This document shows, one piece after another, positions 1-10,027 of a stretch of 10,027 bases of DNA; position 1 is the stretch's first letter; each line of letters starts with the position of its first letter. Position numbers and translations under genes: made by a program. This DNA is from a virus (taxonomy: Duplodnaviria > Heunggongvirae > Uroviricota > Caudoviricetes), in the IMG/VR virus record IMGVR_UViG_3300015186_000054. One strand, 5' to 3'. A model generated the notes under the pieces. It had not been told where the DNA came from and did no database searches. It saw only the letters and a program-made list of their open reading frames with translations.

Positions 1-507
1 GTTTCCTTCTTTCTTATTAACAATTACACCGTCATATATTTCATTAAGGTGCCCTCTCAACTCCATGCGCCTTAATGCAGATAACATGTAATCGCATTCA
101 ACCTGCTTATTTCCAGTAAATGGCTTATCGTCAGGATTACCCCAACAGCAATTACCCTTGGGCCACCCATGTACTTTCCGTACTCTTCCGTTAACAACGT
201 GAAGTAATCCCCAGCCAGGTGGTAAATCCTCAATTGAAATAATTCCTGGCTCACTAATAAAGAATCGCCAGTCGCCCATTCCAAGAGACGGATTTTTACG
301 AAAACGCTTTTTTCTATCTGCCAACAAGTCAGCACGAGAACACTTCGCCTCTATCAGGCATGATGCTGAATTTCTGAATCCCATAGCATCTGGCTGTTCT
401 CCGGTACTGGTTACAGCTATAAAGCGGTCATGAAAACAAACCTTGAACCCGTTGCGCTTAAGGAACTTGTACGCAATCTGACAGAGTTCGCGGTGTGTTA
501 ACGCCAT
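1..507 (-). CDS. hypothetical phage protein, 3'-truncated by the window edge (at least 169 aa); possible PD-(D/E)xK nuclease-like fold
   Basis: Own translation of the minus strand from ATG at 507-505: MALTHRELCQIAYKFLKRNGFKVCFHDRFIAVTSTGEQPDAMGFRNSASCLIEAKCSRADLL..., open through base 1 with no stop, hence absent from the ORF track. SD AAGGAGAG about 6 nt upstream overlaps the stop of the upstream gene. A D...hhhEAK arrangement resembles a PD-(D/E)xK motif; this is weak inference. The track ORF 72..335 is in another frame and rejected. Confidence 0.55.
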   Translation of the reverse strand, partial: MALTHRELCQIAYKFLKRNGFKVCFHDRFIAVTSTGEQPDAMGFRNSASCLIEAKCSRADLLADRKKRFRKNPSLGMGDWRFFISEPGIISIEDLPPGWGLLHVVNGRVRKVHGWPKGNCCWGNPDDKPFTGNKQVECDYMLSALRRMELRGHLNEIYDGVIVNKKEGN

Positions 508-508
508 A

Positions 509-994
509 TCACTCTCCTTTGATGCGAATGCCTGTTGCAATGCTGTTTATGATGCTGTCAGTGCATGGGGTAGAAAGCTGGGCATCTCCAGCAATTTTCA
601 TGACCTCAACATCTGCATATCGAATACCGAGGTGTATCAGACCGGCTATACCTGACTTAAGCCGAGCATTTTCCATAAACAGATCCTTTGCCCGCTGTTT
701 TTCTGCCTCAAGCTCAACGCGCAGCCTCCCAACCGTAAGCGCAATCTCCTCGTTCTCCTGGTCGCGGCGTTTGATGTATTGCTGGTTTCTTTCCCGTTCA
801 TCCAGCAGCGCCAGCACGGTTTCTGGTCCGGTCAGAAATTTGAAGGCGTTGAGCGCATCAATATCCACACCGTAATCTTTAAGTTCCTGTTCACTTAACA
901 AATCATCATCAACTGGCAACATTAACAGGCGTTCCATTGCTGGAGTTGCACGTTCTGCCGCCTCACGCAGTGCCTGGTAATTAATTTTGCTCAC
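509..994 (-). CDS. hypothetical phage protein (161 aa, charged/coiled-coil-like central region)
   Basis: ORF track 509..994. GTG start at 994-992 preceded by a strong SD (AAGGAGG, about 7 nt spacing). Stop TGA lies 1 nt before the ATG of the next minus-strand gene. No family recognised from sequence. Confidence 0.6.
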   Translation of the reverse strand: MSKINYQALREAAERATPAMERLLMLPVDDDLLSEQELKDYGVDIDALNAFKFLTGPETVLALLDERERNQQYIKRRDQENEEIALTVGRLRVELEAEKQRAKDLFMENARLKSGIAGLIHLGIRYADVEVMKIAGDAQLSTPCTDSIINSIATGIRIKGE

Positions 995-1283
995 TGACTG
1001 CCTCCTTCTTAATCAGTTTACACAGGTGCTCCACAGCCACAGAGAGTGCATCCACCGCTCGTTTATCCAGACGCGGGGCCAGAGCAAGCAGTTCATTTAT
1101 TGCAATCTGAATACCATGCTCCGCCGCCAGCGCATTAGCACGCACCAGTTGCACTTCCAGTTGCGTTGCCAAATCGCTGATCAGCTTTGCCACACTGCGC
1201 ATATCAACGGCACCACATTCTGCTTTCAGTTCCGAAGCCATCTCATGCCCGGCGGCAACTAACCCTTTGATATTACTTTCCAT
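981..1283 (-). CDS. hypothetical phage protein (100 aa, Ala/Leu-rich helical)
   Basis: ORF track 981..1283. ATG at 1283-1281 with SD GAGGG 5 nt upstream. Overlaps the start of the downstream gene by 14 nt (coupled). No family recognised. Confidence 0.55.
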   Translation of the reverse strand: MESNIKGLVAAGHEMASELKAECGAVDMRSVAKLISDLATQLEVQLVRANALAAEHGIQIAINELLALAPRLDKRAVDALSVAVEHLCKLIKKEAVSEQN

Positions 1284-1344
1284 CTTTACCCTCGCTTATC
1301 CACATAACTTATTGATTACATTGATAACTAAAAAGATCGTCGAT

Positions 1345-1689
1345 TCAGAACTCTTCGATGTTCCAGCCACCACCTGCTTTCTTTGGTTTAACCGTTACCC
1401 CGATGATTCGGAACGGATACTGATCTGCGGCGACTTTGGTTTTCACCCTGGCGTCGTCGGTCCAGAAACCTTTCACTTCGTGCAGTTCCATCTCGCCGGT
1501 GGCGAGCATCACAGCAAAATCGGGCGTATAGAACGTGTTGTCAGCTAACCGCAGCTTGATACCCTCAAATCGATACCAGACGATTTCTCCTGCACGTTTA
1601 CGCAGCTCAAGGTGCTGGCAATACGCAGATTCTGTTTTGTTCATCTGTCCTGTTTTGAGTCGACCAAGAGCCTGTATCTGTTTTCTCAT
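1345..1689 (-). CDS. DUF1064-family phage protein (nin-region-type, putative nuclease-related)
   Basis: ORF track 114 aa. Segments NKTESAYCQHLELRKRAGEI and YTPDFAVMLATGEMELHEVKGFWTDDARVKTKVAADQYP match my recollection of the DUF1064 pattern (FDSKxE..Y..LE...G.I ... DF......DVKGF.T....K.K......YP). The start codon is immediately preceded by an operator-like dyad that contains the SD. Confidence 0.7.
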   Translation of the reverse strand: MRKQIQALGRLKTGQMNKTESAYCQHLELRKRAGEIVWYRFEGIKLRLADNTFYTPDFAVMLATGEMELHEVKGFWTDDARVKTKVAADQYPFRIIGVTVKPKKAGGGWNIEEF

Positions 1690-1692
1690 GAT

Positions 1693-1707
1693 TTACCCCT
1701 GAGGTAA
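1693..1707. promoter_or_regulatory. operator-like dyad TTACC-CCTGA-GGTAA overlapping the -10/+1 region and the SD of the DUF1064 gene
   Basis: Perfect 5+5 inverted repeat read directly from the sequence. Confidence 0.55.
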
Positions 1708-1738
1708 TTAAAAACCACATAAGACACGAAATCAATAG
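1707..1738 (-). promoter_or_regulatory. putative sigma70 promoter for the DUF1064 operon, paralogous to the early-left promoter
   Basis: Minus-strand reading: -35 TTGATT (plus coordinates 1735-1730), 17-bp spacer, -10 TTTAAT (1712-1707). It shares the heptamer CTATTGA at the -35 with the promoter at 4785-4791 and has identical operator geometry. Confidence 0.4.
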
Positions 1739-1753
1739 ATTTTAGAATATTTT

Positions 1754-1770
1754 ATTACCTAACGGGTAAT
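1754..1770. promoter_or_regulatory. operator-like dyad ATTACC-TAACG-GGTAAT
   Basis: Perfect 6+6 inverted repeat, identical over 18 nt to the site at 4753-4770, 19 bp upstream of the putative -35. Confidence 0.55.
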
Positions 1771-1780
1771 TATCGAAACG

Positions 1781-1803
1781 TAAAAAAATGCGCTATCGCG
1801 CTG
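1781..1803 (-). terminator. weak putative intrinsic terminator directly after the P-like gene (tR2-like position)
   Basis: Minus-strand reading GCGC-GATA-GCGC then ATTTTTTTA. Only a 4-bp stem but a 7-T tract. Begins 3 nt after the P stop. Confidence 0.3.
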
Positions 1804-1806
1804 GTA

Positions 1807-2583
1807 TTACTTGATAAATCCTGCCGCCTTTCCTCGCCTGTATTCCTCCATCAGCCACTGCGCCGGTGTTATTCCCCCAAGGGTGGCGGCGTTAGGCATG
1901 CACCCGAAACTTCGCCCTGGTGGATGGTAAACGTCTCTCCCTGTGTCCGGAGGCGTACTCATGGGTTCTGGCTTTGCCTGTATGCTGATCACCGGATCGG
2001 GTATCTGCTGTCCGGAAGCCACCTTTTTCGCCCAATCATCGAGCAGCCTGCGCGCGTGTTTCTCAACCTCTATCTCGCTAAGCTGGCGCTGATACATTGC
2101 ACGGCGGGTATCACATACGACCCAGTACATAACCGGATGCCGCCACGGGAATCTTTCGGGACCACCAGGATATAAACTTTTTTCCTTGCTGTACCGGTGA
2201 AACTCCGTCATCACATCGTCAATGGTAACGCCAAGAACCATCTTGCTGTCTTTACACCACTTGATGAATTGCCCTGGCGACGGCCAGAACGGAGATTCAC
2301 TGGCGCGGGCGTGGCGCATACCAGCGTTAACCTGTTCCATTGTAGTGATCCCATTCTCCAGAAACGCAAGCATCCATTGCTTACGGAATTCATTAAGTTT
2401 GTTCTGCTCCCTTATGGTCGAAACGCTTGCAGGAAATGCAGCCTGTAACTGGACAAATAGTTCATTGAAAATTCTAGCAACCTGCTCCTTTTTGCCATTG
2501 CTGTCACGCCGCTCTTCATGCACAGCAACACCATGCTCACGTAAGCGATCGTACTCATTGAGAAGTTCTGGAGTTGATTTCAT
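1807..2583 (-). CDS. P: replication protein P-like (DnaB helicase loader)
   Basis: 258-aa ORF. FPASVSTIREQNKLNEFRKQWMLAFLENGITTMEQVNAGMRHARASESPFWPSPGQFIKWC aligns almost residue for residue with lambda P as I recall it (FPASLANRDQNEVNEIRRQWVLAFRENGITTMEQVNAGMRVARRQNRPFLPSPGQFVAWC). SD AAGGGG about 8 nt upstream. Start overlaps the end of the upstream initiator gene by 29 nt. Confidence 0.9.
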   Translation of the reverse strand: MKSTPELLNEYDRLREHGVAVHEERRDSNGKKEQVARIFNELFVQLQAAFPASVSTIREQNKLNEFRKQWMLAFLENGITTMEQVNAGMRHARASESPFWPSPGQFIKWCKDSKMVLGVTIDDVMTEFHRYSKEKSLYPGGPERFPWRHPVMYWVVCDTRRAMYQRQLSEIEVEKHARRLLDDWAKKVASGQQIPDPVISIQAKPEPMSTPPDTGRDVYHPPGRSFGCMPNAATLGGITPAQWLMEEYRRGKAAGFIK

Positions 2584-3385
2584 CCCACACCCCTTCTATC
2601 CAGTCAGTGTTATTCCAGTCAAGCTCATCGCTTTTCCCGGCATTTTTTGATTTTCCCCTGATATGATTTACGTGCCTGGCGAATTTTTGTTCCCACTGAA
2701 CCTGCGTGAACACTTTGCCCTCAGCCATCCAGTAATCCCGGAATGCAGCAAGTTCAGCAGGTGTAAATTCCGGTTCCGGCAGGGCCGTTCCCCACAGCGC
2801 AGCACGCCGCCGAAAATCTGGCGACGGTAGCCAGCCATCTGTCATCGGAAATTTCCCGATGGGTTCACTCAGGCCATCCAGAAATTCAGGTTCTGCCACC
2901 TGCAACGGCGTACTGTTCGCTTCACTGGTCGGAGCACCCTCGCGCACGTGCGCTATGTGTGGGGTTTTATATATATCTTCCTCTTCCTCTTCCTCTGGTA
3001 ACTCCTTTTGTAACGCTGTTGGCGTTACTTTTTGCGTTACTCGTTTTCGATGCTCTGCCACTCTTCTATTCGTAAGTGCACGTTTTTTCGATGATTCTCC
3101 ATTGTGTCGCTCAAAGTTTGGAAGAATTAGTTTGCCGTCATGATAAGCAAGCCATCCGACGCTAATGAGGGCGTCAGCAAATCCTGTAATAAAAGCGAGT
3201 CTATCAAGTACTCCTTTTGTAACGCTGCCAGCGTTACCGTCTATTGTTTGCTGGTCAGCCCATGCCCATATACGAACCAGCTTTCCAAGAACAGCATCTG
3301 GATCAATACCCAGAATTTCTGCTATCTGAAAAATTTCAGGTTTATCAGGAGTGATAACTTCAACCTTAATCCAGCTGCTTGCCAT
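2555..3385 (-). CDS. phage replication initiator (O-like origin-binding N-terminal region, acidic linker, DnaT-like C-terminal domain)
   Basis: The track ORF 2555..3403 starts at a GTG; ATG at 3385-3383 with SD GAGGGG about 7 nt upstream is the likelier start. C-terminal GKFPMTDGWLPSPDFRRRAALWGTALPEPEFTPAELAAFRDYWMAEGKVFTQVQWEQKFAR closely matches E. coli primosomal protein DnaT as recalled ([60 protein letters not shown]). It sits directly upstream of the P-like gene and contains palindromic iterons. Confidence 0.85.
   Translation of the reverse strand: MASSWIKVEVITPDKPEIFQIAEILGIDPDAVLGKLVRIWAWADQQTIDGNAGSVTKGVLDRLAFITGFADALISVGWLAYHDGKLILPNFERHNGESSKKRALTNRRVAEHRKRVTQKVTPTALQKELPEEEEEEDIYKTPHIAHVREGAPTSEANSTPLQVAEPEFLDGLSEPIGKFPMTDGWLPSPDFRRRAALWGTALPEPEFTPAELAAFRDYWMAEGKVFTQVQWEQKFARHVNHIRGKSKNAGKSDELDWNNTDWIEGVWDEINSRTSQ
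2965..3237. repeat. putative replication origin inside the initiator gene: AT-rich tract plus palindromic iterons GTAACGC-N5-GCGTTAC
   Basis: Iteron 1 at 3010-3028 (GTAACGC TGTTG GCGTTAC) followed by an extra GCGTTAC half-site at 3034-3040. Iteron 2 at 3219-3237 (GTAACGC TGCCA GCGTTAC). An 18-nt direct repeat ACTCCTTTTGTAACGCTG occurs at 3001-3018 and 3210-3227. AT-rich TTTTATATATAT at 2965-2976. Confidence 0.5.
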
Positions 3386-3578
3386 AGGTTTCCCCTCTTG
3401 CACTCTTTAGTGCACAAGCAAATTCATTACGATGGCGGTTGGCGCTATTCATTGCACATTCAACACATGTTCCGTTCAGAACATACCTTTCAGAGAGATG
3501 GCCGTGACGGCACCGCTTTCCTGTGAAATAGCGATTTAACCCGGCTTTTGCGGCCTCCATTCTGGTTACTATCTTCAA
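3366..3578 (-). CDS. small zinc-ribbon protein (C-x-H-G-H ... C-x-x-C), occupying the CII position between Cro-like and initiator genes
   Basis: Track ORF 70 aa. The start is a TTG at 3578-3576 with SD AGGGG about 8 nt upstream; an alternative ATG at 3560-3558 has no SD. Motif KRCRHGHLSERYVLNGTCVECA suggests a Cys/His metal site. Overlaps the initiator start by about 20 nt. Function unknown. Confidence 0.45.
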   Translation of the reverse strand: MKIVTRMEAAKAGLNRYFTGKRCRHGHLSERYVLNGTCVECAMNSANRHRNEFACALKSARGETYGKQLD

Positions 3579-4111: not shown

Positions 4112-4696
4112 ATGAAAAGTATCCAGGACGTCCGCAGGCAAAATCTCAACGACTTGATCGACCGTGAATTCAATGGTGTTCAGACGCGGATGGCTGAAAA
4201 ACTTGGAACTCAGGCAAATCTGGTAAACCGCTGGGCTCTTGGCAAGAAGGTTATCGGCGACCAGGTTGCACGAAAAATTGAAGCTGCCGCCAATAAACCC
4301 CGTAACTGGCTTGATATCGATCGCTCGCTTTCTCAGGAAGGTTTTCAGCCTGTCGGCCCAAGCGACATTGGCCAGCTGGCGGCTCACAACCTGGAACGCT
4401 GGATGAGCGAAAGCCGCGACCTTTCAACACAGGGAAAACTTCACCGCGCATCCGGCGTAGCCCAGGTGACAATCAGCCGCCTGTTAAACAATGAGGTCAG
4501 CGTTTCCATTTCCACCCTGGAGAATGTTGCATCCGCATTCGGGCGTCACGGCTATGAATTACTGATTCACCCGCACGACCCTGCGACCATCAACTATGAT
4601 CGCTCGCGCTACGCATTGTTACCCGAAACCGAGAAAGCAAAGATCGAAAGTTACATTGAATTTGTCATCAACCAGAACGAAAAAAACAAACAATAA
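4112..4696 (+). CDS. prophage repressor (CI analogue) with two XRE-type HTH domains and no LexA/S24 peptidase domain
   Basis: 194-aa ORF. N-terminal HTH (GVQTRMAEKLGTQANLVNRWALGKKVIGDQVARKIEAAANKPRNWLD) and a second HTH-like segment (LHRASGVAQVTISRLLNNEVSVSISTLENVASAFG). No Ser/Lys autoprotease motifs. Divergent from the Cro-like gene, weak or no SD, followed by a strong intrinsic terminator. Confidence 0.7.
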   Translation: MKSIQDVRRQNLNDLIDREFNGVQTRMAEKLGTQANLVNRWALGKKVIGDQVARKIEAAANKPRNWLDIDRSLSQEGFQPVGPSDIGQLAAHNLERWMSESRDLSTQGKLHRASGVAQVTISRLLNNEVSVSISTLENVASAFGRHGYELLIHPHDPATINYDRSRYALLPETEKAKIESYIEFVINQNEKNKQ

Positions 4697-4716: not shown

Positions 4717-4743
4717 AAGCCGCCTTATGGCGGCTTTTTTATT
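4717..4743 (+). terminator. rho-independent terminator downstream of the repressor gene
   Basis: Stem AAGCCGCC (4717-4724), loop TTAT, stem GGCGGCTT (4729-4736), followed by a run of T residues. Confidence 0.8.
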
Positions 4744-4784: not shown

Positions 4785-4816
4785 CTATTGACATCAAACC
4801 ATATACGCATAATTAT
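4785..4816 (+). promoter_or_regulatory. putative sigma70 early-left promoter (pL analogue)
   Basis: -35 TTGACA at 4788-4793 (perfect consensus), 17-bp spacer, -10 AATTAT at 4811-4816. Flanked by operator dyads 19 bp upstream of the -35 and overlapping the -10. Confidence 0.55.
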
Positions 4817-4849: not shown

Positions 4850-5002
4850 ATGCAGTGGAAAATCATCAACGGTTGGTACTGCGTTACTGCATGCGGATTC
4901 ATGAGCTGGAAGTTCCGCACCTTACAGGAAGGCATTAAGTGGGCTTTCGTCAGCAAAGAAGCTCGCGATGTGGCCAACGATAACGAGATATGGGAGGGCT
5001 GA
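4850..5002 (+). CDS. hypothetical small protein (50 aa, Trp-rich), first ORF after the leftward early promoter
   Basis: Not in the ORF track (below size cut-off). ATG 4850 with SD GAGGT 9 nt upstream; TGA at 5000-5002. Translation MQWKIINGWYCVTACGFMSWKFRTLQEGIKWAFVSKEARDVANDNEIWEG. Coding status uncertain. Confidence 0.35.
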   Translation: MQWKIINGWYCVTACGFMSWKFRTLQEGIKWAFVSKEARDVANDNEIWEG

Positions 5003-5004
5003 TA

Positions 5005-5304
5005 ATGAACGTTAATCAGCAGAAAAATCTTCAAAAAATCATGCTGGCATTCGATAAGGACTACCGCCTGTCAGAACAGCTATATGACCGACAAGTTGAA
5101 CTGATTGAGAGCATCCGACTTCATCAACTGTCCTCAACTTTCGACGTTGTAACAGGCAAAGGCGTTCGTCAGGAAGTACTGGAGGCTGCTAAAGACAGCC
5201 CTGAGTTCGAAGAACTGATGGATGCCTACCGTCGCGAGGCAATGGCAATTATCGCCCGCTGGGATCTGGCTGATCAGATTGATGGGCAGAGGGACGCGGC
5301 ATGA
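5005..5304 (+). CDS. hypothetical phage protein (99 aa)
   Basis: Track ORF 4990..5304. I prefer ATG 5005 (MNVNQQKNLQ...) because SD GGAGG lies 7 nt upstream. Its stop overlaps the ATG of the exonuclease gene (ATGA). No family recognised. Confidence 0.55.
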   Translation: MNVNQQKNLQKIMLAFDKDYRLSEQLYDRQVELIESIRLHQLSSTFDVVTGKGVRQEVLEAAKDSPEFEELMDAYRREAMAIIARWDLADQIDGQRDAA

Positions 5305-6200
5305 TGCGGAACGCTGGAATCATGGATAGAACAAAATACATCGGAGGAAGCGATGTTGCAGGGATTCTTGGAATTAGCCCATGGCGCACCCCGCTTGAGG
5401 TTTATCTGGATAAGGTCCAGCCACGTGTCAAACCAGTAGACCCAAGCAAGCAGAAAGTTTTCACGCGTGGCCAGCGTATGGAGCCATACGTAATAGACCT
5501 GCTTTCTGAGGAAACAGGGATGGAAATCGTTCATCGCGGAAACCGCTATATCCACCGTGATTACGATTTTATTGCAGCTGAGATCGATGCAGAAGCAGCG
5601 TCAGGCGAGAACATTGAGATCAAAACAGTTAGTCCGTTCAAAGCCAAAGAATGGGGAGAAATCCAGACAGATGCAATTCCTGTGCATTACACGGCCCAGG
5701 CCATGCACGGGTTGATGGTTACAAACAAACAGGTATGCGTTTTCGGTGTGCTTATCGGTGGCGACGACTTCCGAATCTATCGGGTTGAGCGTGATGAAGA
5801 AACTATCCAGGCGATCTTAGAAAAAGAAATCGCTTTCTGGGACCGAGTGAAAAATCTTAACCCGCCGGAAGCTACCAGCGTAAGCGATGTATCGCTGATG
5901 TTTGAGAAAGATGCCGGGACAAGTATCGAGGCTGACGGAAAGGCACTCGCACTATTCAACGATCTACGAGACATGAAGTCACGCAGAAAATCACTGGAAG
6001 AAGAAATAGCTATATCAGAAGAGAAGCTGAAGATGTACATGCAAGAGCACTCAGTCCTGACCCTGGACGGAAAGCCGCTCTGCACATGGAAATCTCAGAT
6101 CAGCAACAGATTCGACCAGAAGCTATTCCAGTCAGTACACCCTGAGTTATTCGAAAAATTCAAAACAACAACGACACAACGCGTCTTCAGAATGAAGTAA
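5301..6200 (+). CDS. YqaJ/lambda-Exo-type phage exonuclease (recombination partner of RecT)
   Basis: 299-aa ORF. N-terminal KYIGGSDVAGILGISPWRTPLEVYL is the characteristic YqaJ viral-recombinase-domain signature. Immediately upstream of a RecT gene. SD AGAGGGA upstream. Confidence 0.85.
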   Translation: MMRNAGIMDRTKYIGGSDVAGILGISPWRTPLEVYLDKVQPRVKPVDPSKQKVFTRGQRMEPYVIDLLSEETGMEIVHRGNRYIHRDYDFIAAEIDAEAASGENIEIKTVSPFKAKEWGEIQTDAIPVHYTAQAMHGLMVTNKQVCVFGVLIGGDDFRIYRVERDEETIQAILEKEIAFWDRVKNLNPPEATSVSDVSLMFEKDAGTSIEADGKALALFNDLRDMKSRRKSLEEEIAISEEKLKMYMQEHSVLTLDGKPLCTWKSQISNRFDQKLFQSVHPELFEKFKTTTTQRVFRMK

Positions 6201-6209
6201 GGAGAAAAA

Positions 6210-7232
6210 ATGTCTATCAATGCACTTAAGGCAGCGGCTACCGGTAACCAAGTTGCACATCATAATGAGAAACCAACAACTCTGGCCGGACTTCTGGCAG
6301 ACCCAAAAATTAAAGCTCAGATGGCTTTGGCACTTCCAAAGCACATGACAGCAGACCGTCTGGCGCGCATAGCAACCACAGAGATCCGAAAGGTTCCAAA
6401 ACTTGCATCATGCGACCAAGCCAGCTTCCTGGGGGCAATTATGCAATGTGCCCAATTGGGTCTTGAACCAGGCGGAGCTCTTGGACACGCTTACCTGATA
6501 CCGTTCGACAAACGCCAGAAAGTAAATGGAAGATGGGAAACCGTATCTACAGAAGCACAGCTGATTATCGGCTATCGCGGAATGATTGACCTTGCCCGCC
6601 GCTCTGGGCAGATCCTGAGTATCTCGGCTCGTACCGTACATACAAACGACAAATTCAGCTACTCATACGGCCTGGAAGAAACGCTCGAGCATTTACCTTG
6701 CGAAACAGGTGACCGCGGAGAATTAACGCACGTTTACGCCGTTGCACGACTGAAAGATGGCGGAGTCCAATTTGAAGTTATGAGCCGGGCAGACGTTGAG
6801 AAAGTTCGTGCACTGAGCAAAGCCGGTAGCAGTGGCCCATGGGTTGATCACTTCGATGAGATGGCTAAAAAAACAGTAATTCGCCGACTGTTCAAATATC
6901 TTCCTGTTTCTATTGAAATGCAGAAGGCTGTTGTTATGGATGAGCGCGCTGAAGCTGGACTTAGCCAAGATAACGCAGCTGTTATCACTGGTGAATATTC
7001 CGTAGTTGACGATGAGCGTCAACACCTATCGCCAATTTCAGATTCAGAACGAGAAGAAGCTCGAGAATATATCATCGCGATACTTAATAGCCTGGATCCA
7101 TCTGCTGAAGATGCAAAAACGATGTTCAAGCGCGCTGAAAATGAAATTAACACCATGGCTGACAAGCTCGGTGATGAATATCACCAAAAATTCATGATGA
7201 CGCTTAACGATATGCGTCCAGAATTCGAGTAA
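6210..7232 (+). CDS. recT: RecT-family single-strand annealing recombinase
   Basis: 340-aa ORF. GHAYLIPFDKRQKVNGRWETVSTEAQLIIGYRGMIDLARRSGQI matches the RecT/Red-beta core as recalled. SD AAGGAG 6 nt upstream of ATG 6210. Confidence 0.9.
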   Translation: MSINALKAAATGNQVAHHNEKPTTLAGLLADPKIKAQMALALPKHMTADRLARIATTEIRKVPKLASCDQASFLGAIMQCAQLGLEPGGALGHAYLIPFDKRQKVNGRWETVSTEAQLIIGYRGMIDLARRSGQILSISARTVHTNDKFSYSYGLEETLEHLPCETGDRGELTHVYAVARLKDGGVQFEVMSRADVEKVRALSKAGSSGPWVDHFDEMAKKTVIRRLFKYLPVSIEMQKAVVMDERAEAGLSQDNAAVITGEYSVVDDERQHLSPISDSEREEAREYIIAILNSLDPSAEDAKTMFKRAENEINTMADKLGDEYHQKFMMTLNDMRPEFE

Positions 7233-7240
7233 CCACCACC

Positions 7241-7259
7241 GCGGCGCCACGCGCGCCGC
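7241..7259 (+). other. GC-rich hairpin between recT and the AlpA-like gene (no U-tract)
   Basis: GCGGCGC (7241-7247), loop CACGC, GCGCCGC (7253-7259): perfect 7-bp G/C stem, not followed by a T-run. Confidence 0.4.
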
Positions 7260-7281
7260 ACTGCAACCAAGAGAGGTATTT

Positions 7282-7530
7282 ATGAAAGGTGCATTAGGTA
7301 AGAAGGAACTCCTGGCGGTGGTGCCACTGTCATGGAGCACTATCGACCGTATGGAGCGCGCAGGGGAATTTCCTAAACGCTGGTATATCACCGATAAACG
7401 CTGCGCATGGAACCGTGATGAAGTTGAGCGTTGGCTTGATGAACGTCAGGCAGCAAGCCCGGCAGAGTTCCAGGGTAAAAAACCTCCTGTTCAGCAACGT
7501 GTATATCGTCCCGTGAGCAACGCGGCATGA
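7282..7530 (+). CDS. AlpA/Xis-family DNA-binding protein (excisionase or transcriptional regulator)
   Basis: 82-aa ORF. LLAVVPLSWSTIDRMERAGEFPKRWYITDKRCAWNRDEVERWLDERQ is the typical AlpA/phage-excisionase pattern. SD GAGAGG upstream. Confidence 0.75.
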   Translation: MKGALGKKELLAVVPLSWSTIDRMERAGEFPKRWYITDKRCAWNRDEVERWLDERQAASPAEFQGKKPPVQQRVYRPVSNAA

Positions 7531-7643
7531 GTGTGCTGCTAAGGCACTGGAGCAAATGGTCAGGATGGTACTTATTCCTGGCCTCTGTTTCTGCATGGCT
7601 TTATCTGCTGGCATTAATTTTCAGAGAGGGTTGGATTAAGTGA
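7527..7643 (+). CDS. hypothetical 38-aa single-pass membrane peptide
   Basis: Not in the ORF track. ATG 7527 overlaps the AlpA stop (ATGA) and its TGA at 7641-7643 overlaps the GTG start of the next gene (GTGA). Translation MSVLLRHWSKWSGWYLFLASVSAWLYLLALIFREGWIK has one hydrophobic Trp-flanked segment. Coding status inferred from the double coupling. Confidence 0.35.
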   Translation: MSVLLRHWSKWSGWYLFLASVSAWLYLLALIFREGWIK

Positions 7644-7939
7644 GAAAGTTAAGCCGACTTGATAAATATCACATGAACAAGGTTTCAATGCGCAGCCCTT
7701 CAAAGGTTGTTGCCGTTACTCCTGCGGCGATAGAGATCGAAAAACGCGCGATTGAAAGAGAGAAAAAAGGGCAATTCCGCATTGCCGCTCACCTTTGGCT
7801 TCAGTGTATGGATGTTGCTTCTGGTGATGTTGAACGTGCAAGGATCGCGGTTCGCAGGGACCAATGTATCACAAAAAGTAACGGCCTTCGCCGTGGCGAC
7901 TATAGCGGCATAGGATGTTGCGGGGTGGTTTATGACTAA
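7640..7939 (+). CDS. hypothetical small protein, possibly ANR-family regulator-like
   Basis: Track ORF 99 aa, GTG start with a purine-rich stretch (AGAGAGGG) about 10 nt upstream. EREKKGQFRIAAHLWLQCMDVASGDVERARIAVRRDQC resembles my memory of the ANR-family pattern found downstream of alpA in P4-like elements; unverified. Confidence 0.5.
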   Translation: MRKLSRLDKYHMNKVSMRSPSKVVAVTPAAIEIEKRAIEREKKGQFRIAAHLWLQCMDVASGDVERARIAVRRDQCITKSNGLRRGDYSGIGCCGVVYD

Positions 7940-8582
7940 GAAATACACACTAATCTATGCAGATCCACCCTGGGTATACCGGGATAAAGCCGCAGATGGT
8001 AATCGCGGTGCCGGTTTTAAATATCCGGTTATGAGTGTGCTGGATATCTGCCGCCTTCCTGTGTGGGATTTGGCCGATGAAAACTGTCTATTGGCCATGT
8101 GGTGGGTGCCAACACAACCACTCGAAGCACTAAAAGTTGTTGAAGCCTGGGGATTCCGTCTGATGACCATGAAGGGCTTCACGTGGATAAAATGTGGTAG
8201 TCGACAACCAGATAAACTGGTTATGGGTATGGGACACATGACTCGCGCCAATAGTGAAGATTGCCTGTTTGCGGTAAAGGGAAAACTACCTCCGCGCATT
8301 AATGCAGGTATCGTTCAGTCATTTACCGCACCGCGGCTTGAGCATTCAAGAAAACCAGATGTCGTTCGTGAAAAACTTGTGCAATTATTAGGCGATGTTT
8401 CTCGCATTGAACTGTTCGCCCGCCAGACGTCTCATGGCTTCGATGTTTGGGGTAATCAGTGCGAAGACCCGGCAGTGCAACTACACCCTGGATACGCGTT
8501 GGATATTGGCGGATTAACAAATGCATTCAGCAATGCTCCGCTGTCACCAACAGACAACCAGGGGCGGGAGCGTGCTGCATGA
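7932..8582 (+). CDS. MT-A70-family DNA N6-adenine methyltransferase, orphan (no restriction partner in window)
   Basis: 216-aa ORF. N-terminal LIYADPPWVY (DPPW catalytic motif) followed by CLLAMWW and GFTWIK, typical of MT-A70-like methyltransferases. ATG 7932 overlaps the upstream stop by 8 nt; SD GGGGTGG. Confidence 0.85.
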   Translation: MTKKYTLIYADPPWVYRDKAADGNRGAGFKYPVMSVLDICRLPVWDLADENCLLAMWWVPTQPLEALKVVEAWGFRLMTMKGFTWIKCGSRQPDKLVMGMGHMTRANSEDCLFAVKGKLPPRINAGIVQSFTAPRLEHSRKPDVVREKLVQLLGDVSRIELFARQTSHGFDVWGNQCEDPAVQLHPGYALDIGGLTNAFSNAPLSPTDNQGRERAA

Positions 8583-8773
8583 ACAGGGCATCACCAGCAG
8601 ATTTAAGAAAATGCCTTGAAACTGCAAACATGCTTGCACACAGCGGGATCAGGTTTGTTCCAATTCCCGCTGTCACTGATGCTGAATTTGCAACACTGTC
8701 AGCAATATTCGAAAACAAAATTGAATCACTGGCAGCAGAAGCAGAGATGGAAGAAAATCAGCAGAACTATTAA
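8579..8773 (+). CDS. hypothetical phage protein (64 aa)
   Basis: Track ORF 8459..8773. I prefer ATG 8579 (MNRASPADLRK...), which overlaps the methyltransferase stop (ATGA) and has GGGAG upstream. Ends 3 bp from the integrase stop. Confidence 0.5.
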   Translation: MNRASPADLRKCLETANMLAHSGIRFVPIPAVTDAEFATLSAIFENKIESLAAEAEMEENQQNY

Positions 8774-8776
8774 ACG

Positions 8777-10027
8777 TTATTCCCCCGCCATCCACTTCTC
8801 AAACTTCGACGGGGAGAACGGAATAAGATCCGTATGCTCCCCGTTAATCCAGGAATCAATCATATCGGCCCACTGCTGCAACATGTAGGCGCGCTGTCTG
8901 GCGTATTCCGCTTTGTTATATACGGCGCGCACACCTTTCTGCTCATGTGCCAGAGCCTTTTCAATCCAGTCTGAAGGATAACCAGCCTCATGCAACAACG
9001 TACTTGCTGTACGGCGCATATCGTGTACGGTGAAGTCCTGAATATGCTCACCATCTTCATTTATTATTTTCACCGTTCTGTCGATCAGAGAGTTCAGCGC
9101 GGCATTAGATAATGGCTTCCGGAAATTGTAACGACCAGGAACCAGATATTCACTTCCACCAGCGCACATCTGCAACCCGACCAATATATCCTGAGCCTGT
9201 TTAGGCAGGTAAATAACATGCGCCCGGCTTCCCTTCATGCGGTCTGAAGGAATTGTCCATGTCCATTTTTTAAAATCTATTTCATCCCACGTTGCATTGG
9301 TGAATTCGCCCTTACGAACCATAGTGATAAGCACCAGTTTTAAAGCCATTTTCATAGTGCCCATAGCACCAATGGCATCCAACGTGCGGAAGAACAGGCC
9401 AATTTCTTCTGGTGTCAGTGTTCGCTCTCGTGGTTTAAATATGGCGATAGACGAAGGCTTAATGTCAGCCGCAGGATTAAACAAACCATGACCACGGTCA
9501 TTGGCGTGACGGTATACGCTGCTGATGATCTCCCTGGCCTGCACTGCTGTTGCCCGGCCACCGCGTTCGACAATCCGGTCACACAAATCACGAACCATCG
9601 ATGTGGTAATTTCAGCCATCATTTTGTTGCCAAGAACCGGAAGTATGTCACGGTCGATCACTGCCTGCTTCATTGCGCGGGTACTTTCAGCCAGGATGAC
9701 GTGTTTCATATAACTGTCGGTATGTACCGCAAACGTTTCGGCACCACGAATCTTTTTGATACCGTCACGTTTAGCCGCAGCCGGTGACTGGCCTGCTTTA
9801 AGCAGCTTCTTTGCAGCAATCAGTTCTTCCCGCGCTTCTGCCAGGCTGATACCGTCACGCCCATACTGCCCGATTACCAGTGTTTCGCGGCGACCGTTGA
9901 TACGGTAGTCATAACGAAATGAGACCGTGCCTGACGTAAGCACAGCTACATACAGCCCGTCACGATCGGAGACCTTGTACAGTTTGTCCTGCGGCTTGAG
10001 GTTTTTTAATTTTGTATCGGTAAGCAC
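8777..10027 (-). CDS. int: tyrosine recombinase, P4/IntS-type phage integrase
   Basis: 416-aa ORF. N-terminus LTDTKLKNLKPQDKLYKVSDRDGLYVAVLTSG is an integrase SAM-like N-domain. C-terminal HDMRRTASTLL ... LAHEQKGVRAVYNKAEY carries the His/Arg box and catalytic Tyr pattern. The first codon is GTG at 10027-10025, exactly at the window edge. Confidence 0.9.
   Translation of the reverse strand: MLTDTKLKNLKPQDKLYKVSDRDGLYVAVLTSGTVSFRYDYRINGRRETLVIGQYGRDGISLAEAREELIAAKKLLKAGQSPAAAKRDGIKKIRGAETFAVHTDSYMKHVILAESTRAMKQAVIDRDILPVLGNKMMAEITTSMVRDLCDRIVERGGRATAVQAREIISSVYRHANDRGHGLFNPAADIKPSSIAIFKPRERTLTPEEIGLFFRTLDAIGAMGTMKMALKLVLITMVRKGEFTNATWDEIDFKKWTWTIPSDRMKGSRAHVIYLPKQAQDILVGLQMCAGGSEYLVPGRYNFRKPLSNAALNSLIDRTVKIINEDGEHIQDFTVHDMRRTASTLLHEAGYPSDWIEKALAHEQKGVRAVYNKAEYARQRAYMLQQWADMIDSWINGEHTDLIPFSPSKFEKWMAGE

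What the first reader, a model, noticed from the sequence alone, without database searches (positions are those of the whole stretch)
7932..8582. Orphan MT-A70-type adenine methyltransferase with no cognate nuclease
The DPPW motif and overall pattern indicate an N6-adenine methyltransferase. No restriction endonuclease gene is adjacent. Prophage orphan methyltransferases can protect phage DNA against host restriction or act in epigenetic regulation, and the target specificity is unknown.
Basis: partly seen in the sequence, partly recalled or inferred. Interest (0 to 1): 0.45.

Follow-up and report, generated by a model that had tools for sequence, protein, structure and literature searches.

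The report
Prophage MT-A70 (Dam-like) adenine methyltransferase
This is a real but ordinary and already-annotated phage gene: a small stand-alone adenine methyltransferase carried by phiV10-type prophages in about one in ten E. coli genomes, which most likely methylates GATC sites in DNA as the host Dam enzyme does.

Summary
Window 7932-8582 (+) is an intact 216-aa ORF with DPPW at residues 11-14 and a full-length Pfam MT-A70 match (E=5.8e-22). No restriction nuclease is encoded in the window or anywhere in phage phiV10 (97.6% nt identity).

The gene is not new. The exact protein is catalogued on at least 600 contigs as "MT-A70 family methyltransferase", is PhiV10p33, and occurs in 539 of 5426 complete E. 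coli genomes.

The specificity can be predicted. The protein is sister (83% over residues 1-187; 86% over the 177-aa core) to the Stx-phage enzymes M.EcoGV and M.EcoPA8orf6770P. M.EcoGV is reported GATC-specific in vivo. Two deeper relatives, Serratia phage BZS1 p32 (40%) and Tn1549 M.EfaBMDam, are also experimentally GATC-specific. The best reading is a Dam-isospecific orphan DNA m6A methyltransferase in the prophage early-left operon.

The main rival is a 2023 report that M.EcoPA8orf6770P is a 16S rRNA methyltransferase when bound to PNB-2, encoded directly upstream. This window lacks PNB-2, has an unrelated C-terminal tail, and has a PerC/ANR-like gene upstream instead.

A PerC/ANR-like gene lies within 2.5 kb in 27 of 81 diverse loci, an undescribed linkage of unknown meaning. 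Interest is low.

The parts
7932..8582 (+). MT-A70 family (beta-class) N6-adenine methyltransferase, 216 aa; orthologue of PhiV10p33
7962..7973 (+). Codons for DPPW (motif IV, catalytic/adenine-binding), residues 11-14
   Evidence: Sequence. P12 and W14 are invariant and D11 and P13 are at least 90% conserved in 17 homologues; W14 is invariant in 98. DPPW->APPA abolishes function in the 83%-identical orthologue (PMC10810198)
8250..8459 (+). C-terminal half of the catalytic core with the conserved blocks NSEDCLFA (107-114), HSRKPD (138-143), ELFAR (160-164) and WGNQ (173-176), the putative SAM-binding side
   Evidence: Invariant or near-invariant columns; aligned with the Tetrahymena MTA1 blocks SQKPEE...LEIFARR
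8463..8579 (+). Variable C-terminal tail (about residues 178-216), unrelated to the tail of the Stx-phage orthologue; residues 200-216 predicted disordered
   Evidence: BLASTP alignment stops at residue 187; tails are hypervariable in the family; pLDDT below 50 for 200-216; the tail is conserved in the Salmonella homologue P0007
7640..7939 (+). PerC/ANR-like small regulator ORF (longest ORF from GTG 7640; phiV10 annotation starts at the ATG equivalent to 7673); its stop overlaps the methyltransferase start by 8 nt
   Evidence: Pfam PerC E=2.5e-7; NCBIfam ANR 23.7 bits, below cut-off; phrog_868 E=4.5e-61; phiV10 p34; recurrent linkage to MT-A70 genes
8579..8773 (+). DUF1382 small protein, ATGA overlap with the methyltransferase stop; last gene of the operon
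   Evidence: Pfam DUF1382 1-60/60 E=1.8e-30; also downstream of the Stx-phage orthologue but in only 2 of 75 diverse loci
4788..4816 (+). Sigma-70 promoter-like site (TTGACA-17-AATTAT, 10/12), the candidate early-left promoter of the operon that ends with the methyltransferase and DUF1382
   Evidence: Consensus scan; the only + strand promoter-like site between 4000 and 10027. Function is inferred
4717..4736 (+). Terminator-like hairpin after the HTH repressor-like gene (4112-4696)
   Evidence: phiV10 annotates a terminator at the same place
4990..7530 (+). Upstream genes of the same operon: phrog_856 protein (4990-5304), YqaJ/RecE-like exonuclease (5301-6200), RecT (6210-7232), AlpA/excisionase-like (7282-7530)
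8777..10027 (-). Tyrosine integrase (P4-type), convergent with the operon; marks the prophage end
   Evidence: Pfam Arm-DNA-bind_3, Phage_integrase and Phage_int_M

Best explanation
The gene encodes a stand-alone (orphan) phage DNA methyltransferase of the prokaryotic MT-A70 branch of the beta-class amino-methyltransferases. It most probably transfers the methyl group of S-adenosylmethionine to N6 of the adenine in GATC, the same site as host Dam, which is an unrelated alpha-class enzyme.

Shown here: the ORF is intact and all family motifs are present. The predicted fold is that of the METTL3/MTA1 catalytic subunit. There is no nuclease partner. The gene is the second-to-last gene of a compact, roughly 4-kb same-strand early-left block (recombination genes, excisionase-like gene, PerC/ANR-like gene, methyltransferase, DUF1382) in a phiV10-type (Uetakevirus) prophage.

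Inferred: (1) GATC specificity, by phylogenetic bracketing with three experimentally GATC-specific relatives. (2) Expression mainly after infection or induction from the promoter-like site at 4788-4816. (3) Action as a homodimer, as proposed for beta-class enzymes in general. (4) Biological role: keeping rapidly replicating phage DNA fully GATC-methylated regardless of host Dam capacity. That would protect it from restriction enzymes that cut unmethylated GATC-containing sites and from MutH-type processing, with possible side effects on host gene expression.

For: GATC bracket: 156/187 identical to M.EcoPA8orf6770P, which differs from the O104:H4 phage P13374 methylase (taken as M.EcoGV on the strength of Gong et al.) by one residue. 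M.EcoGV is reported to methylate GATC in vivo and is listed as GATC 'determined by PacBio' (PMC10810198; PMC6602927 Table 3). BZS1 p32, 40% identical, made DNA MboI-resistant and DpnI-sensitive in a dam- host when cloned alone. M.EfaBMDam of Tn1549 is cited there as GATC-specific (PMC7556043). In the NJ tree the window protein is sister to M.EcoGV, with BZS1 p32 and an Enterococcus conjugative-element homologue on the deeper branches.

Orphan status. Neighbours across 75-76 species-level loci are variable phage genes with no conserved nuclease, and other DNA methylases sit adjacent in several loci.

No obligatory partner: the upstream gene family varies (PerC 8, DUF1317 6, NinB 5, NinG 4 and others), and BZS1 p32 works without its upstream ANR gene. 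Operon signals; phiV10 annotation.
Against: No experiment exists on this phiV10-type variant. The GATC result for M.EcoGV came from plasmid overexpression and I could read it only through citing papers; Fang et al. 2012 is not held. Gong et al. found purified M.EcoPA8orf6770P essentially inactive on dam- DNA in vitro, and active preferentially on 16S rRNA/30S subunits once bound to PNB-2. Thirty-one substitutions separate the window protein from that enzyme within residues 1-187, several of them in the low-confidence loop 86-103 (I86N, S90K, P93T, H102S, M103T) that could contact substrate. The C-terminal tails are unrelated. A GATC methylase looks redundant in a Dam+ host. GATC frequency in phiV10 (observed/expected 0.79) and the positions of GATC sites in the window give no independent support.
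Confidence: 0.65

Rival explanations
1. It is, like the reported M.EcoPA8orf6770P-PNB-2 holoenzyme, primarily an RNA (16S rRNA) adenine methyltransferase. Its substrate would be set by a small partner protein encoded next to it, here possibly the PerC/ANR-like protein or DUF1382, and it would modulate translation and prophage induction rather than DNA modification.
For: 83% identity to the enzyme for which this was reported (PMC10810198). The closest solved structures all work as heteromers, and METTL3 is an RNA enzyme. The upstream ORF overlaps the methyltransferase start by 8 nt, as PNB-2 overlaps by 4 nt. A PerC/ANR-like ORF lies on the same strand within 2.5 kb in 27 of 81 diverse loci.
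Against: PNB-2 is absent, and the PerC-like protein shows no similarity to it. The STEC-type C-terminal tail that Gong et al. link to PNB-2 binding is replaced by an unrelated tail. Overlaps of 1, 4 or 8 nt with both neighbours are the rule in these operons whatever the neighbour is. Upstream families are highly variable. BZS1 p32, which also has an ANR gene upstream, is a GATC DNA methylase on its own. PerC-methyltransferase co-divergence is weak: Mantel r 0.46, driven by close relatives. The rRNA claim itself rests on SAM-consumption assays with no modified base mapped.
Confidence: 0.1
2. It is a DNA m6A methyltransferase, but with a specificity other than GATC or with relaxed or non-specific activity. 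It would then act as a broad anti-restriction device, like M.EcoGII or Hia5.
For: Many prophage methyltransferases are promiscuous (PMC5778455; PMC4659465). The protein is very small, with no separate target-recognition domain. There are substitutions in the flexible loops relative to M.EcoGV. A second Serratia prophage enzyme in the BZS1 paper has relaxed specificity, though its family is not stated to be MT-A70.
Against: M.EcoGII is a different family: DPPY/FxGxG, 349 aa. All three characterised prokaryotic MT-A70 enzymes, spanning about 40-86% identity and bracketing this protein, are GATC-specific. BZS1 p32 did not protect HinfI or Hin1II sites.
Confidence: 0.17
3. It is an inactive or decaying prophage remnant with no enzymatic role.
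For: Prophage methyltransferases are often silent in lysogens. A few homologues carry altered motif IV: EPPW in P0017, DPAW in P0064.
Against: The ORF is full length, identical in length to the gene of the viable phage phiV10, with all conserved motifs intact. It is 98-100% conserved across 80 viral contigs and at least 600 contigs. The model is confident over the whole catalytic core.
Confidence: 0.03
4. It is the modification half of a restriction-modification system whose nuclease lies outside the window.
For: The window ends at the integrase, so DNA beyond it was not seen. PADLOC models label the protein as a Type II MTase.
Against: The complete phiV10 genome has no restriction enzyme. Beyond the integrase lies the attachment site and host DNA. 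Neighbours in 75-76 diverse loci include no conserved nuclease partner.
Confidence: 0.02

Closest known systems
M.EcoGV / M.EcoPA8orf6770P (Stx2-phage MT-A70 methyltransferase; phages P13374 and PA8)
   Same: Sister in the tree: 156/187 identical, 86% over the 177-aa core, with the same N-terminal TLIYADPPW and all motifs. Same position near the integrase end of a temperate coliphage, followed by a DUF1382 gene.
   Different: The C-terminal approximately 30 residues are unrelated. The upstream gene is PerC/ANR-like rather than PNB-2 (118-aa winged-HTH). The host phage is a phiV10-type podovirus, not a Stx phage. Published activities conflict: GATC DNA methylation in vivo versus 16S rRNA methylation with PNB-2.
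PhiBZS1_p32 (Serratia phage vB_SspM_BZS1), experimentally GATC-specific MT-A70 DNA methyltransferase
   Same: Same family and gene order: ANR/PerC-family small regulator, then MT-A70, then a small ORF, excisionase and integrase. It acts alone as a Dam-like enzyme.
   Different: Only 40% identical, with a roughly 23-residue insertion in the central loop. It belongs to the other major clade of the family.
M.EfaBMDam (Tn1549, Enterococcus), GATC-specific 'beta2-class' MT-A70 enzyme
   Same: Prokaryotic MT-A70 subfamily with reported GATC specificity (cited in PMC7556043). An Enterococcus faecium conjugative-element homologue is 42% identical to the window protein.
   Different: Firmicute conjugative transposon rather than a phage. 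I could not verify that the Enterococcus sequence I retrieved is M.EfaBMDam itself.
Eukaryotic MT-A70 enzymes: METTL3-METTL14 (mRNA m6A) and ciliate MTA1-MTA9 (DNA 6mA at ApT)
   Different: About 20-28% identity. The eukaryotic enzymes are obligate heteromers with extra RNA- or DNA-binding subunits or domains. The phage protein is a bare roughly 180-aa core plus a short tail.
E. coli Dam (alpha-class, PF02086)
   Same: Predicted identical target (GATC) and product (m6A). This is functional convergence, as already noted for BZS1.
   Different: Unrelated class and motif order; no sequence similarity.
M.EcoGII / M.EcoGI (non-specific prophage adenine methyltransferases)
   Same: Prophage-borne orphan beta-class adenine methyltransferases, silent in lysogens.
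   Different: Different family: 349 aa, DPPY and FxGxG motifs, sequence-independent activity. Not a model for this protein.

Membership tests
MT-A70 family (Pfam PF05063) | Full-length match to the family HMM above the gathering threshold | tested here: met
   Residues 5-176 against profile 1-172/172, 78.9 bits against a cut-off of 23.9, E=5.8e-22
MT-A70 family (Pfam PF05063) | Catalytic motif IV DPPW | tested here: met
   DPPW at residues 11-14; P12 and W14 invariant and D11 and P13 at least 90% conserved in 17 homologues, W14 invariant in 98
MT-A70 family (Pfam PF05063) | METTL3/MTA1-type Rossmann-like fold | tested here: met
Beta-class amino-methyltransferases | Permuted motif order: motif IV (DPPW) N-terminal, SAM-binding blocks C-terminal | tested here: met
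   DPPW at 11-14; HSRKPD 138-143, ELFAR 160-164 and WGNQ 173-176 align with the MTA1 C-terminal blocks. The next-best folds are the beta-class DNA MTases M.MboIIA, M.RsrI, CcrM and EcoP15I Mod
Orphan (solitary) methyltransferase | No cognate restriction endonuclease gene nearby | tested here: met
   All window ORFs were assigned to phage functions or had no defence hit. The whole phiV10 genome has no REase. No conserved nuclease neighbour in 75-76 loci
Dam-like (GATC-specific) DNA m6A methyltransferases of the prokaryotic MT-A70 subfamily | Methylation of the adenine in GATC (DpnI sensitivity and MboI resistance, or a SMRT signal) | not testable with these tools
   Only inferred, from M.EcoGV (83% over residues 1-187), BZS1 p32 (40%) and M.EfaBMDam, which bracket the protein
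Dam-like (GATC-specific) DNA m6A methyltransferases of the prokaryotic MT-A70 subfamily | Phylogenetic placement among characterised GATC-specific members | tested here: met
   In the NJ tree of 80+ family members the window protein is sister to M.EcoGV/PA8, with BZS1 p32 and the Enterococcus homologue on deeper branches
M.EcoPA8orf6770P-PNB-2 16S rRNA methyltransferase holoenzyme (Gong et al. 2023) | PNB-2 partner gene immediately upstream and co-transcribed | tested here: not met
   The upstream ORF is PerC/ANR-like, with no BLASTP similarity to PNB-2 at E<=100. PNB-2-like ORFs were found only next to other family members: L003, L004, L142, L145
M.EcoPA8orf6770P-PNB-2 16S rRNA methyltransferase holoenzyme (Gong et al. 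2023) | STEC-type C-terminal approximately 27 residues, proposed to be needed for holoenzyme formation | tested here: not met
   The alignment ends at residue 187 and the tails are unrelated
M.EcoPA8orf6770P-PNB-2 16S rRNA methyltransferase holoenzyme (Gong et al. 2023) | Preferential methylation of 16S rRNA / 30S subunits | not testable with these tools
   Biochemical property; no computation available
phiV10/epsilon15-like temperate podophage (Uetakevirus) early-left module | Nucleotide identity and synteny with phiV10 p31-p40 | tested here: met
   97.6% nt identity over 1201 bp to phiV10. Same gene order: repressor, terminator, recombination genes, AlpA, PerC, MTase, DUF1382, then integrase on the opposite strand. 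80 IMG/VR contigs are 98-100% identical

The most novel reading that the evidence does not exclude
The MT-A70 core is a swappable catalytic module whose substrate or timing is set by whichever small nucleic-acid-binding or regulatory protein is encoded just upstream, together with a matching variable C-terminal tail. The partner would be PNB-2 in Stx phages and a PerC/ANR-like protein in phiV10-type, BZS1-type and many other enterobacterial prophages. On this reading the PerC/ANR-MT-A70 pair, seen in a third of the diverse loci, would be an undescribed two-component epigenetic or epitranscriptomic regulator linking a virulence-regulator family to adenine methylation.
Probability: 0.08. Interest if true: 0.55.

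Novelty: already known. Interest (0 to 1): 0.2.

Why it matters
The practical value is modest. About 10% of complete E. coli genomes carry this gene, so methylome and phage-host studies should expect a second, phage-borne, probably GATC-specific methyltransferase that becomes active on induction.

Its main scientific use is as a natural control for an open dispute: is the Stx-phage orthologue a Dam-like DNA enzyme or a 16S rRNA enzyme? The phiV10 variant has the same core (86%) but lacks PNB-2 and the STEC-type tail. Comparing the two, and swapping tails and partners, would show directly what those elements do.

There is still no solved structure of any bacterial MT-A70 enzyme. The recurrent PerC/ANR linkage is a small, testable lead.

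Tried and rejected
1. M.EcoGII, M.EcoGI and M.EcoGIX as models (my first recollection): rejected. M.EcoGII/GI are 349-aa DPPY/FxGxG enzymes, and M.EcoGIX is a plasmid single-strand-specific enzyme.
2. First structure prediction with a 17-sequence alignment gave pLDDT 48 and was discarded. A 98-sequence alignment gave pLDDT 81.
3. GATC observed/expected ratios (0.69 in the window, 0.79 in phiV10) and the positions of the 34 GATC sites show no clustering or avoidance that bears on function.
4. Fang et al. 2012, the primary source for M.EcoGV, could not be read. The claim is taken from two citing papers.
5. The viral-contig scan with the single protein returned only 98-100% identical phiV10-type loci. 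Diversity came from the genome-contig scan with an alignment.
6. PerC-like versus PNB-2, PerC-like versus BZS1 p33, and DUF1382 versus BZS1 p31: no pairwise BLASTP similarity. The PerC/ANR relation appears only at profile level.
7. DUF1382 as a conserved partner: rejected, since it is downstream in only 2 of 75 loci.
8. The start-codon overlap with the upstream ORF as evidence of partnership: rejected, because 1, 4 or 8-nt overlaps occur with almost any neighbour.
9. Co-divergence of PerC-like and methyltransferase sequences is weak: Mantel r 0.46, with no signal between the deep clades.
10. A literature search for a described PerC-methyltransferase link found nothing relevant.
11. My first downstream-ORF picker chose wrong ORFs and was corrected.
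Full report
**Observation**

Window 7932-8582 (+) is an intact ORF of 216 codons, from ATG to TGA. Residues 11-14 are DPPW (nt 7962-7973). Pfam MT-A70 (PF05063) matches end to end: profile 1-172 of 172, 78.9 bits against a cut-off of 23.9, E=5.8e-22. PHROG 359 'DNA methyltransferase' (E=4.8e-120) and a PADLOC Type II methyltransferase model (E=5.9e-77) agree. The conserved blocks of the family are all present: NSEDCLFA 107-114, HSRKPD 138-143, ELFAR 160-164 and WGNQ 173-176. They fall on invariant or near-invariant columns in alignments of 17 and 98 homologues.

**Context**

The window is the early region of a phiV10/epsilon15-type temperate podophage (Uetakevirus).

- On the minus strand lie Ead/Ea22, DUF1064, lambda-P-like and DnaT-like replication genes.
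- On the plus strand lie an HTH repressor-like gene (4112-4696), a terminator-like hairpin (4717-4736) and a near-consensus promoter-like site (4788-4816).
- A tightly packed same-strand block follows: phrog_856, YqaJ/RecE-like exonuclease, RecT, AlpA/excisionase-like, PerC/ANR-like, the methyltransferase and DUF1382. It ends against a convergent P4-type integrase.
- The 1201 bp around the gene are 97.6% identical to phage phiV10, where the gene is PhiV10p33 'DNA methyltransferase'.
- That stretch is at least 95% identical in 539 of 5426 complete E. coli genomes, annotated 'MT-A70 family methyltransferase'.
- Eighty IMG/VR contigs carry a 98-100% identical protein.
- The exact sequence is on record on at least 600 contigs as 'MULTISPECIES: MT-A70 family methyltransferase [Enterobacteriaceae]' or 'adenine methylase'.

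No ORF in the window resembles a restriction enzyme or any PADLOC defence protein other than the methyltransferase. The complete 39-kb phiV10 genome has one methyltransferase and no restriction enzyme. 'Orphan' is therefore correct.

**Fold**

- Then METTL14, MTA9 and METTL4.
- Then the bacterial beta-class DNA methyltransferases M.MboIIA (11.5), M.BceJIV (11.2), M1.HpyAVI (10.8), M.RsrI (9.9), EcoP15I Mod (9.7) and CcrM (9.5).
- A classical rRNA methyltransferase (RsmC) scores only 6.6.

Sequence search of the PDB gives MTA1 at E=4e-13 and METTL3 at about 4e-6. No bacterial MT-A70 structure exists in the PDB copy.

**What is known about close relatives**

The mutagenesis primer in Gong, Chakraborty and Koudelka (NAR 2023, PMC10810198) encodes TLIYADPPWTFRD. 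That identified the Stx-phage protein, and I retrieved it from phage PA8 (KP682374) and from the O104:H4 phage P13374. The window protein is 156/187 identical to it (83%; 86% over the 177-aa core). Beyond residue 187 the two tails are unrelated.

Two experimental claims exist for that enzyme.

- Gong et al. report that M.EcoGV, which they describe as highly similar to M.EcoPA8orf6770P, methylates GATC in vivo when overproduced (Fang et al. 2012, as cited). A methylome paper lists it as GATC 'determined by PacBio' (PMC6602927). I take the P13374 methylase, which differs from the PA8 protein by one residue, to be M.EcoGV on that basis.
- Gong et al. found the purified protein nearly inactive on DNA. 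When it was co-purified with PNB-2, the product of the gene immediately upstream, it consumed SAM preferentially with 16S rRNA and 30S subunits. The modified base was not mapped.

A third line of evidence comes from PMC7556043. Serratia phage BZS1 p32, an MT-A70 enzyme, was cloned alone in a dam- host. It made DNA MboI-resistant and DpnI-sensitive but did not protect HinfI or Hin1II sites, so it is GATC-specific. The same paper cites M.EfaBMDam of Tn1549 as a GATC-specific member of the prokaryotic MT-A70 subgroup. BZS1 p32 is 40% identical to the window protein. An Enterococcus faecium conjugative-element homologue, which I could not confirm to be M.EfaBMDam, is 42% identical.

In a neighbour-joining tree of more than 80 family members, the window protein is sister to M.EcoGV/PA8. 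BZS1 p32 sits in the other major clade and the Enterococcus protein lies outside both. GATC specificity thus brackets the window protein, which makes GATC the strong prediction.

**Does the rRNA-holoenzyme model apply here?**

PNB-2 is absent. The upstream ORF is PerC/ANR-like (Pfam PerC E=2.5e-7; NCBIfam ANR below cut-off) and has no detectable similarity to PNB-2. The STEC-type tail that Gong et al. suspect of binding PNB-2 is replaced.

I surveyed 80 species-level loci found with a family alignment.

- The catalytic core is conserved and the tails are hypervariable.
- Overlaps of 1, 4 or 8 nt with both neighbours are the norm whatever the neighbour is.
- Upstream families vary: PerC 8, DUF1317 6, NinB 5, HTH/PaaX/GntR-like about 5, NinG 4, with C5 DNA methylase, ParB-HTH and others among 76 loci.
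- Downstream families vary as well: RusA 6, antiterminator Q 5, LexA-like 5, C5 DNA methylase 4, DUF1382 2, N6_N4 methylase 1, among 75 loci.

There is no universal partner and no nuclease. The occasional neighbouring DNA methylases fit a DNA-modification role. BZS1 has the same local order as the window: an ANR-family gene (50.9 bits to NCBIfam ANR), then MT-A70, a small ORF, excisionase and integrase. Its enzyme nevertheless works alone on GATC. I therefore give the rRNA/partner model about 0.1 for this variant.

**A side observation**

I seeded an iterative HMM with the window's PerC-like ORF and searched it against the 81 loci analysed. It finds a PerC/ANR-like ORF within 2.5 kb in 27 of 81 loci. 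The ORF is always on the methyltransferase strand, lies upstream in 26 of the 27, and is directly adjacent in 15. These loci span methyltransferases only 40-100% identical to the window protein. Divergence of the two genes correlates only modestly (Mantel r 0.46, p about 0.0005), and the signal comes from close relatives. I found no paper describing the linkage. It may reflect only shared residence in the integrase-proximal accessory zone of temperate enterobacterial phages. It is the basis of the low-probability novel reading.

**Mechanism**

Shown: an intact MT-A70 core, no nuclease, and operon membership.

Inferred: the enzyme binds SAM through the C-terminal blocks and the flipped adenine at DPPW. 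It methylates GATC in double-stranded DNA, probably as a homodimer, as reviewed for beta-class enzymes in PMC7544214. It is made from the early-left transcript after infection or induction, since the only plus-strand promoter-like site lies at 4788-4816 and no terminator follows before 8773. This keeps fast-replicating phage DNA fully methylated independently of limiting host Dam.

The proposed benefits rest on general knowledge, not on tests here: protection from enzymes that cut unmethylated GATC-containing sites, avoidance of MutH nicking during RecET-type recombination, and possible effects on host regulation. GATC statistics neither support nor contradict this.

**Verdict**

The gene is already known and annotated. 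This variant is uncharacterised experimentally, but its specificity can be predicted (GATC, confidence about 0.65-0.7). Interest is low at 0.2. The one useful angle is that this variant is a natural control for the unresolved DNA-versus-rRNA question about its Stx-phage orthologue.

Noticed in passing
window 7640-7939 with 7932-8582; loci L086-L166: A PerC/ANR-like small ORF is linked to MT-A70 genes in 27 of 81 diverse loci. It is always on the same strand, lies upstream in 26 of the 27 and is immediately adjacent in 15, across methyltransferases only 40-100% identical to each other. The linkage is not described in the papers searched. Co-divergence is weak.
   Followed up: partly
L001 2774-3004 and L003 2851-3282 (reverse strand in the record): Two different proteins are encoded upstream of the same Stx-phage methyltransferase: PNB-2 (118/143 aa) in PA8 and P13374, and an unrelated 76-aa protein in phage 06-3462. 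Both end in the identical 10 residues LYIDEFENAL. This is either a mosaic recombination junction about 30 nt upstream of the methyltransferase start or a shared C-terminal peptide with a function.
   Followed up: no
P0072 (Enterobacter hormaechei, 238 aa) in alignment A1: Intragenic mosaic. The N-terminal half is of the BZS1-type clade, including the roughly 23-residue central insertion. The C-terminal half and tail are of the phiV10 type and nearly identical to Salmonella P0007. Recombination evidently occurs inside the methyltransferase gene.
   Followed up: no
window 5301-6200 and 6210-7232 versus L002 1541-3301: In the window the RecE-like exonuclease (299 aa) and RecT (340 aa) are separate ORFs 9 nt apart. 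The phiV10 record annotates a single 586-aa RecE-RecT fusion protein.
   Followed up: no
homologues P0017 (Klebsiella), P0064 (Serratia), L100, L134, L145, L146, L150, L151, L156: Some family members have non-canonical motif IV: EPPW (P0017) or DPAW instead of DPPW. Whether these are active is unknown.
   Followed up: no
plasmid records H110-H121 (Escherichia, 47-50 kb, non-mobilizable): A 77%-identical MT-A70 gene sits on a series of E. coli, E. albertii and E. fergusonii 'plasmids' of about 47-50 kb, a size and mobility class that suggests phage-plasmids. One 41-kb 'plasmid' (NZ_CP079771.1) carries the phiV10-type PerC-methyltransferase-DUF1382 block at 98.6%.
   Followed up: no
L085 (phiV10) 38492-38773, outside the window: phiV10 encodes an ASCH-domain protein (PhiV10p54). 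Iyer et al. predict that ASCH domains bind modified nucleic acids, so it is a possible reader for the phage's own methylation.
   Followed up: no
window, whole; L085: CTAG is strongly depleted: 1 observed against 6.7 expected in the window, and 8 against 32 in phiV10. GGCC is also low, at 0.56-0.67. CTAG depletion is usual in enterobacterial DNA.
   Followed up: no
loci among L086-L165 (Pfam scans of A2 and A3): C-5 cytosine DNA methylase genes lie immediately upstream (3 loci) or downstream (4 loci) of MT-A70 homologues, and an N6_N4 methylase lies downstream in one. These form small methyltransferase clusters in prophages.
   Followed up: no
window about 7527-7643: The gap between the AlpA-like gene and the PerC-like gene corresponds to phiV10 p35, a 38-aa predicted membrane protein. 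It falls below the ORF length cut-off I used, and I did not check it in the window.
   Followed up: no
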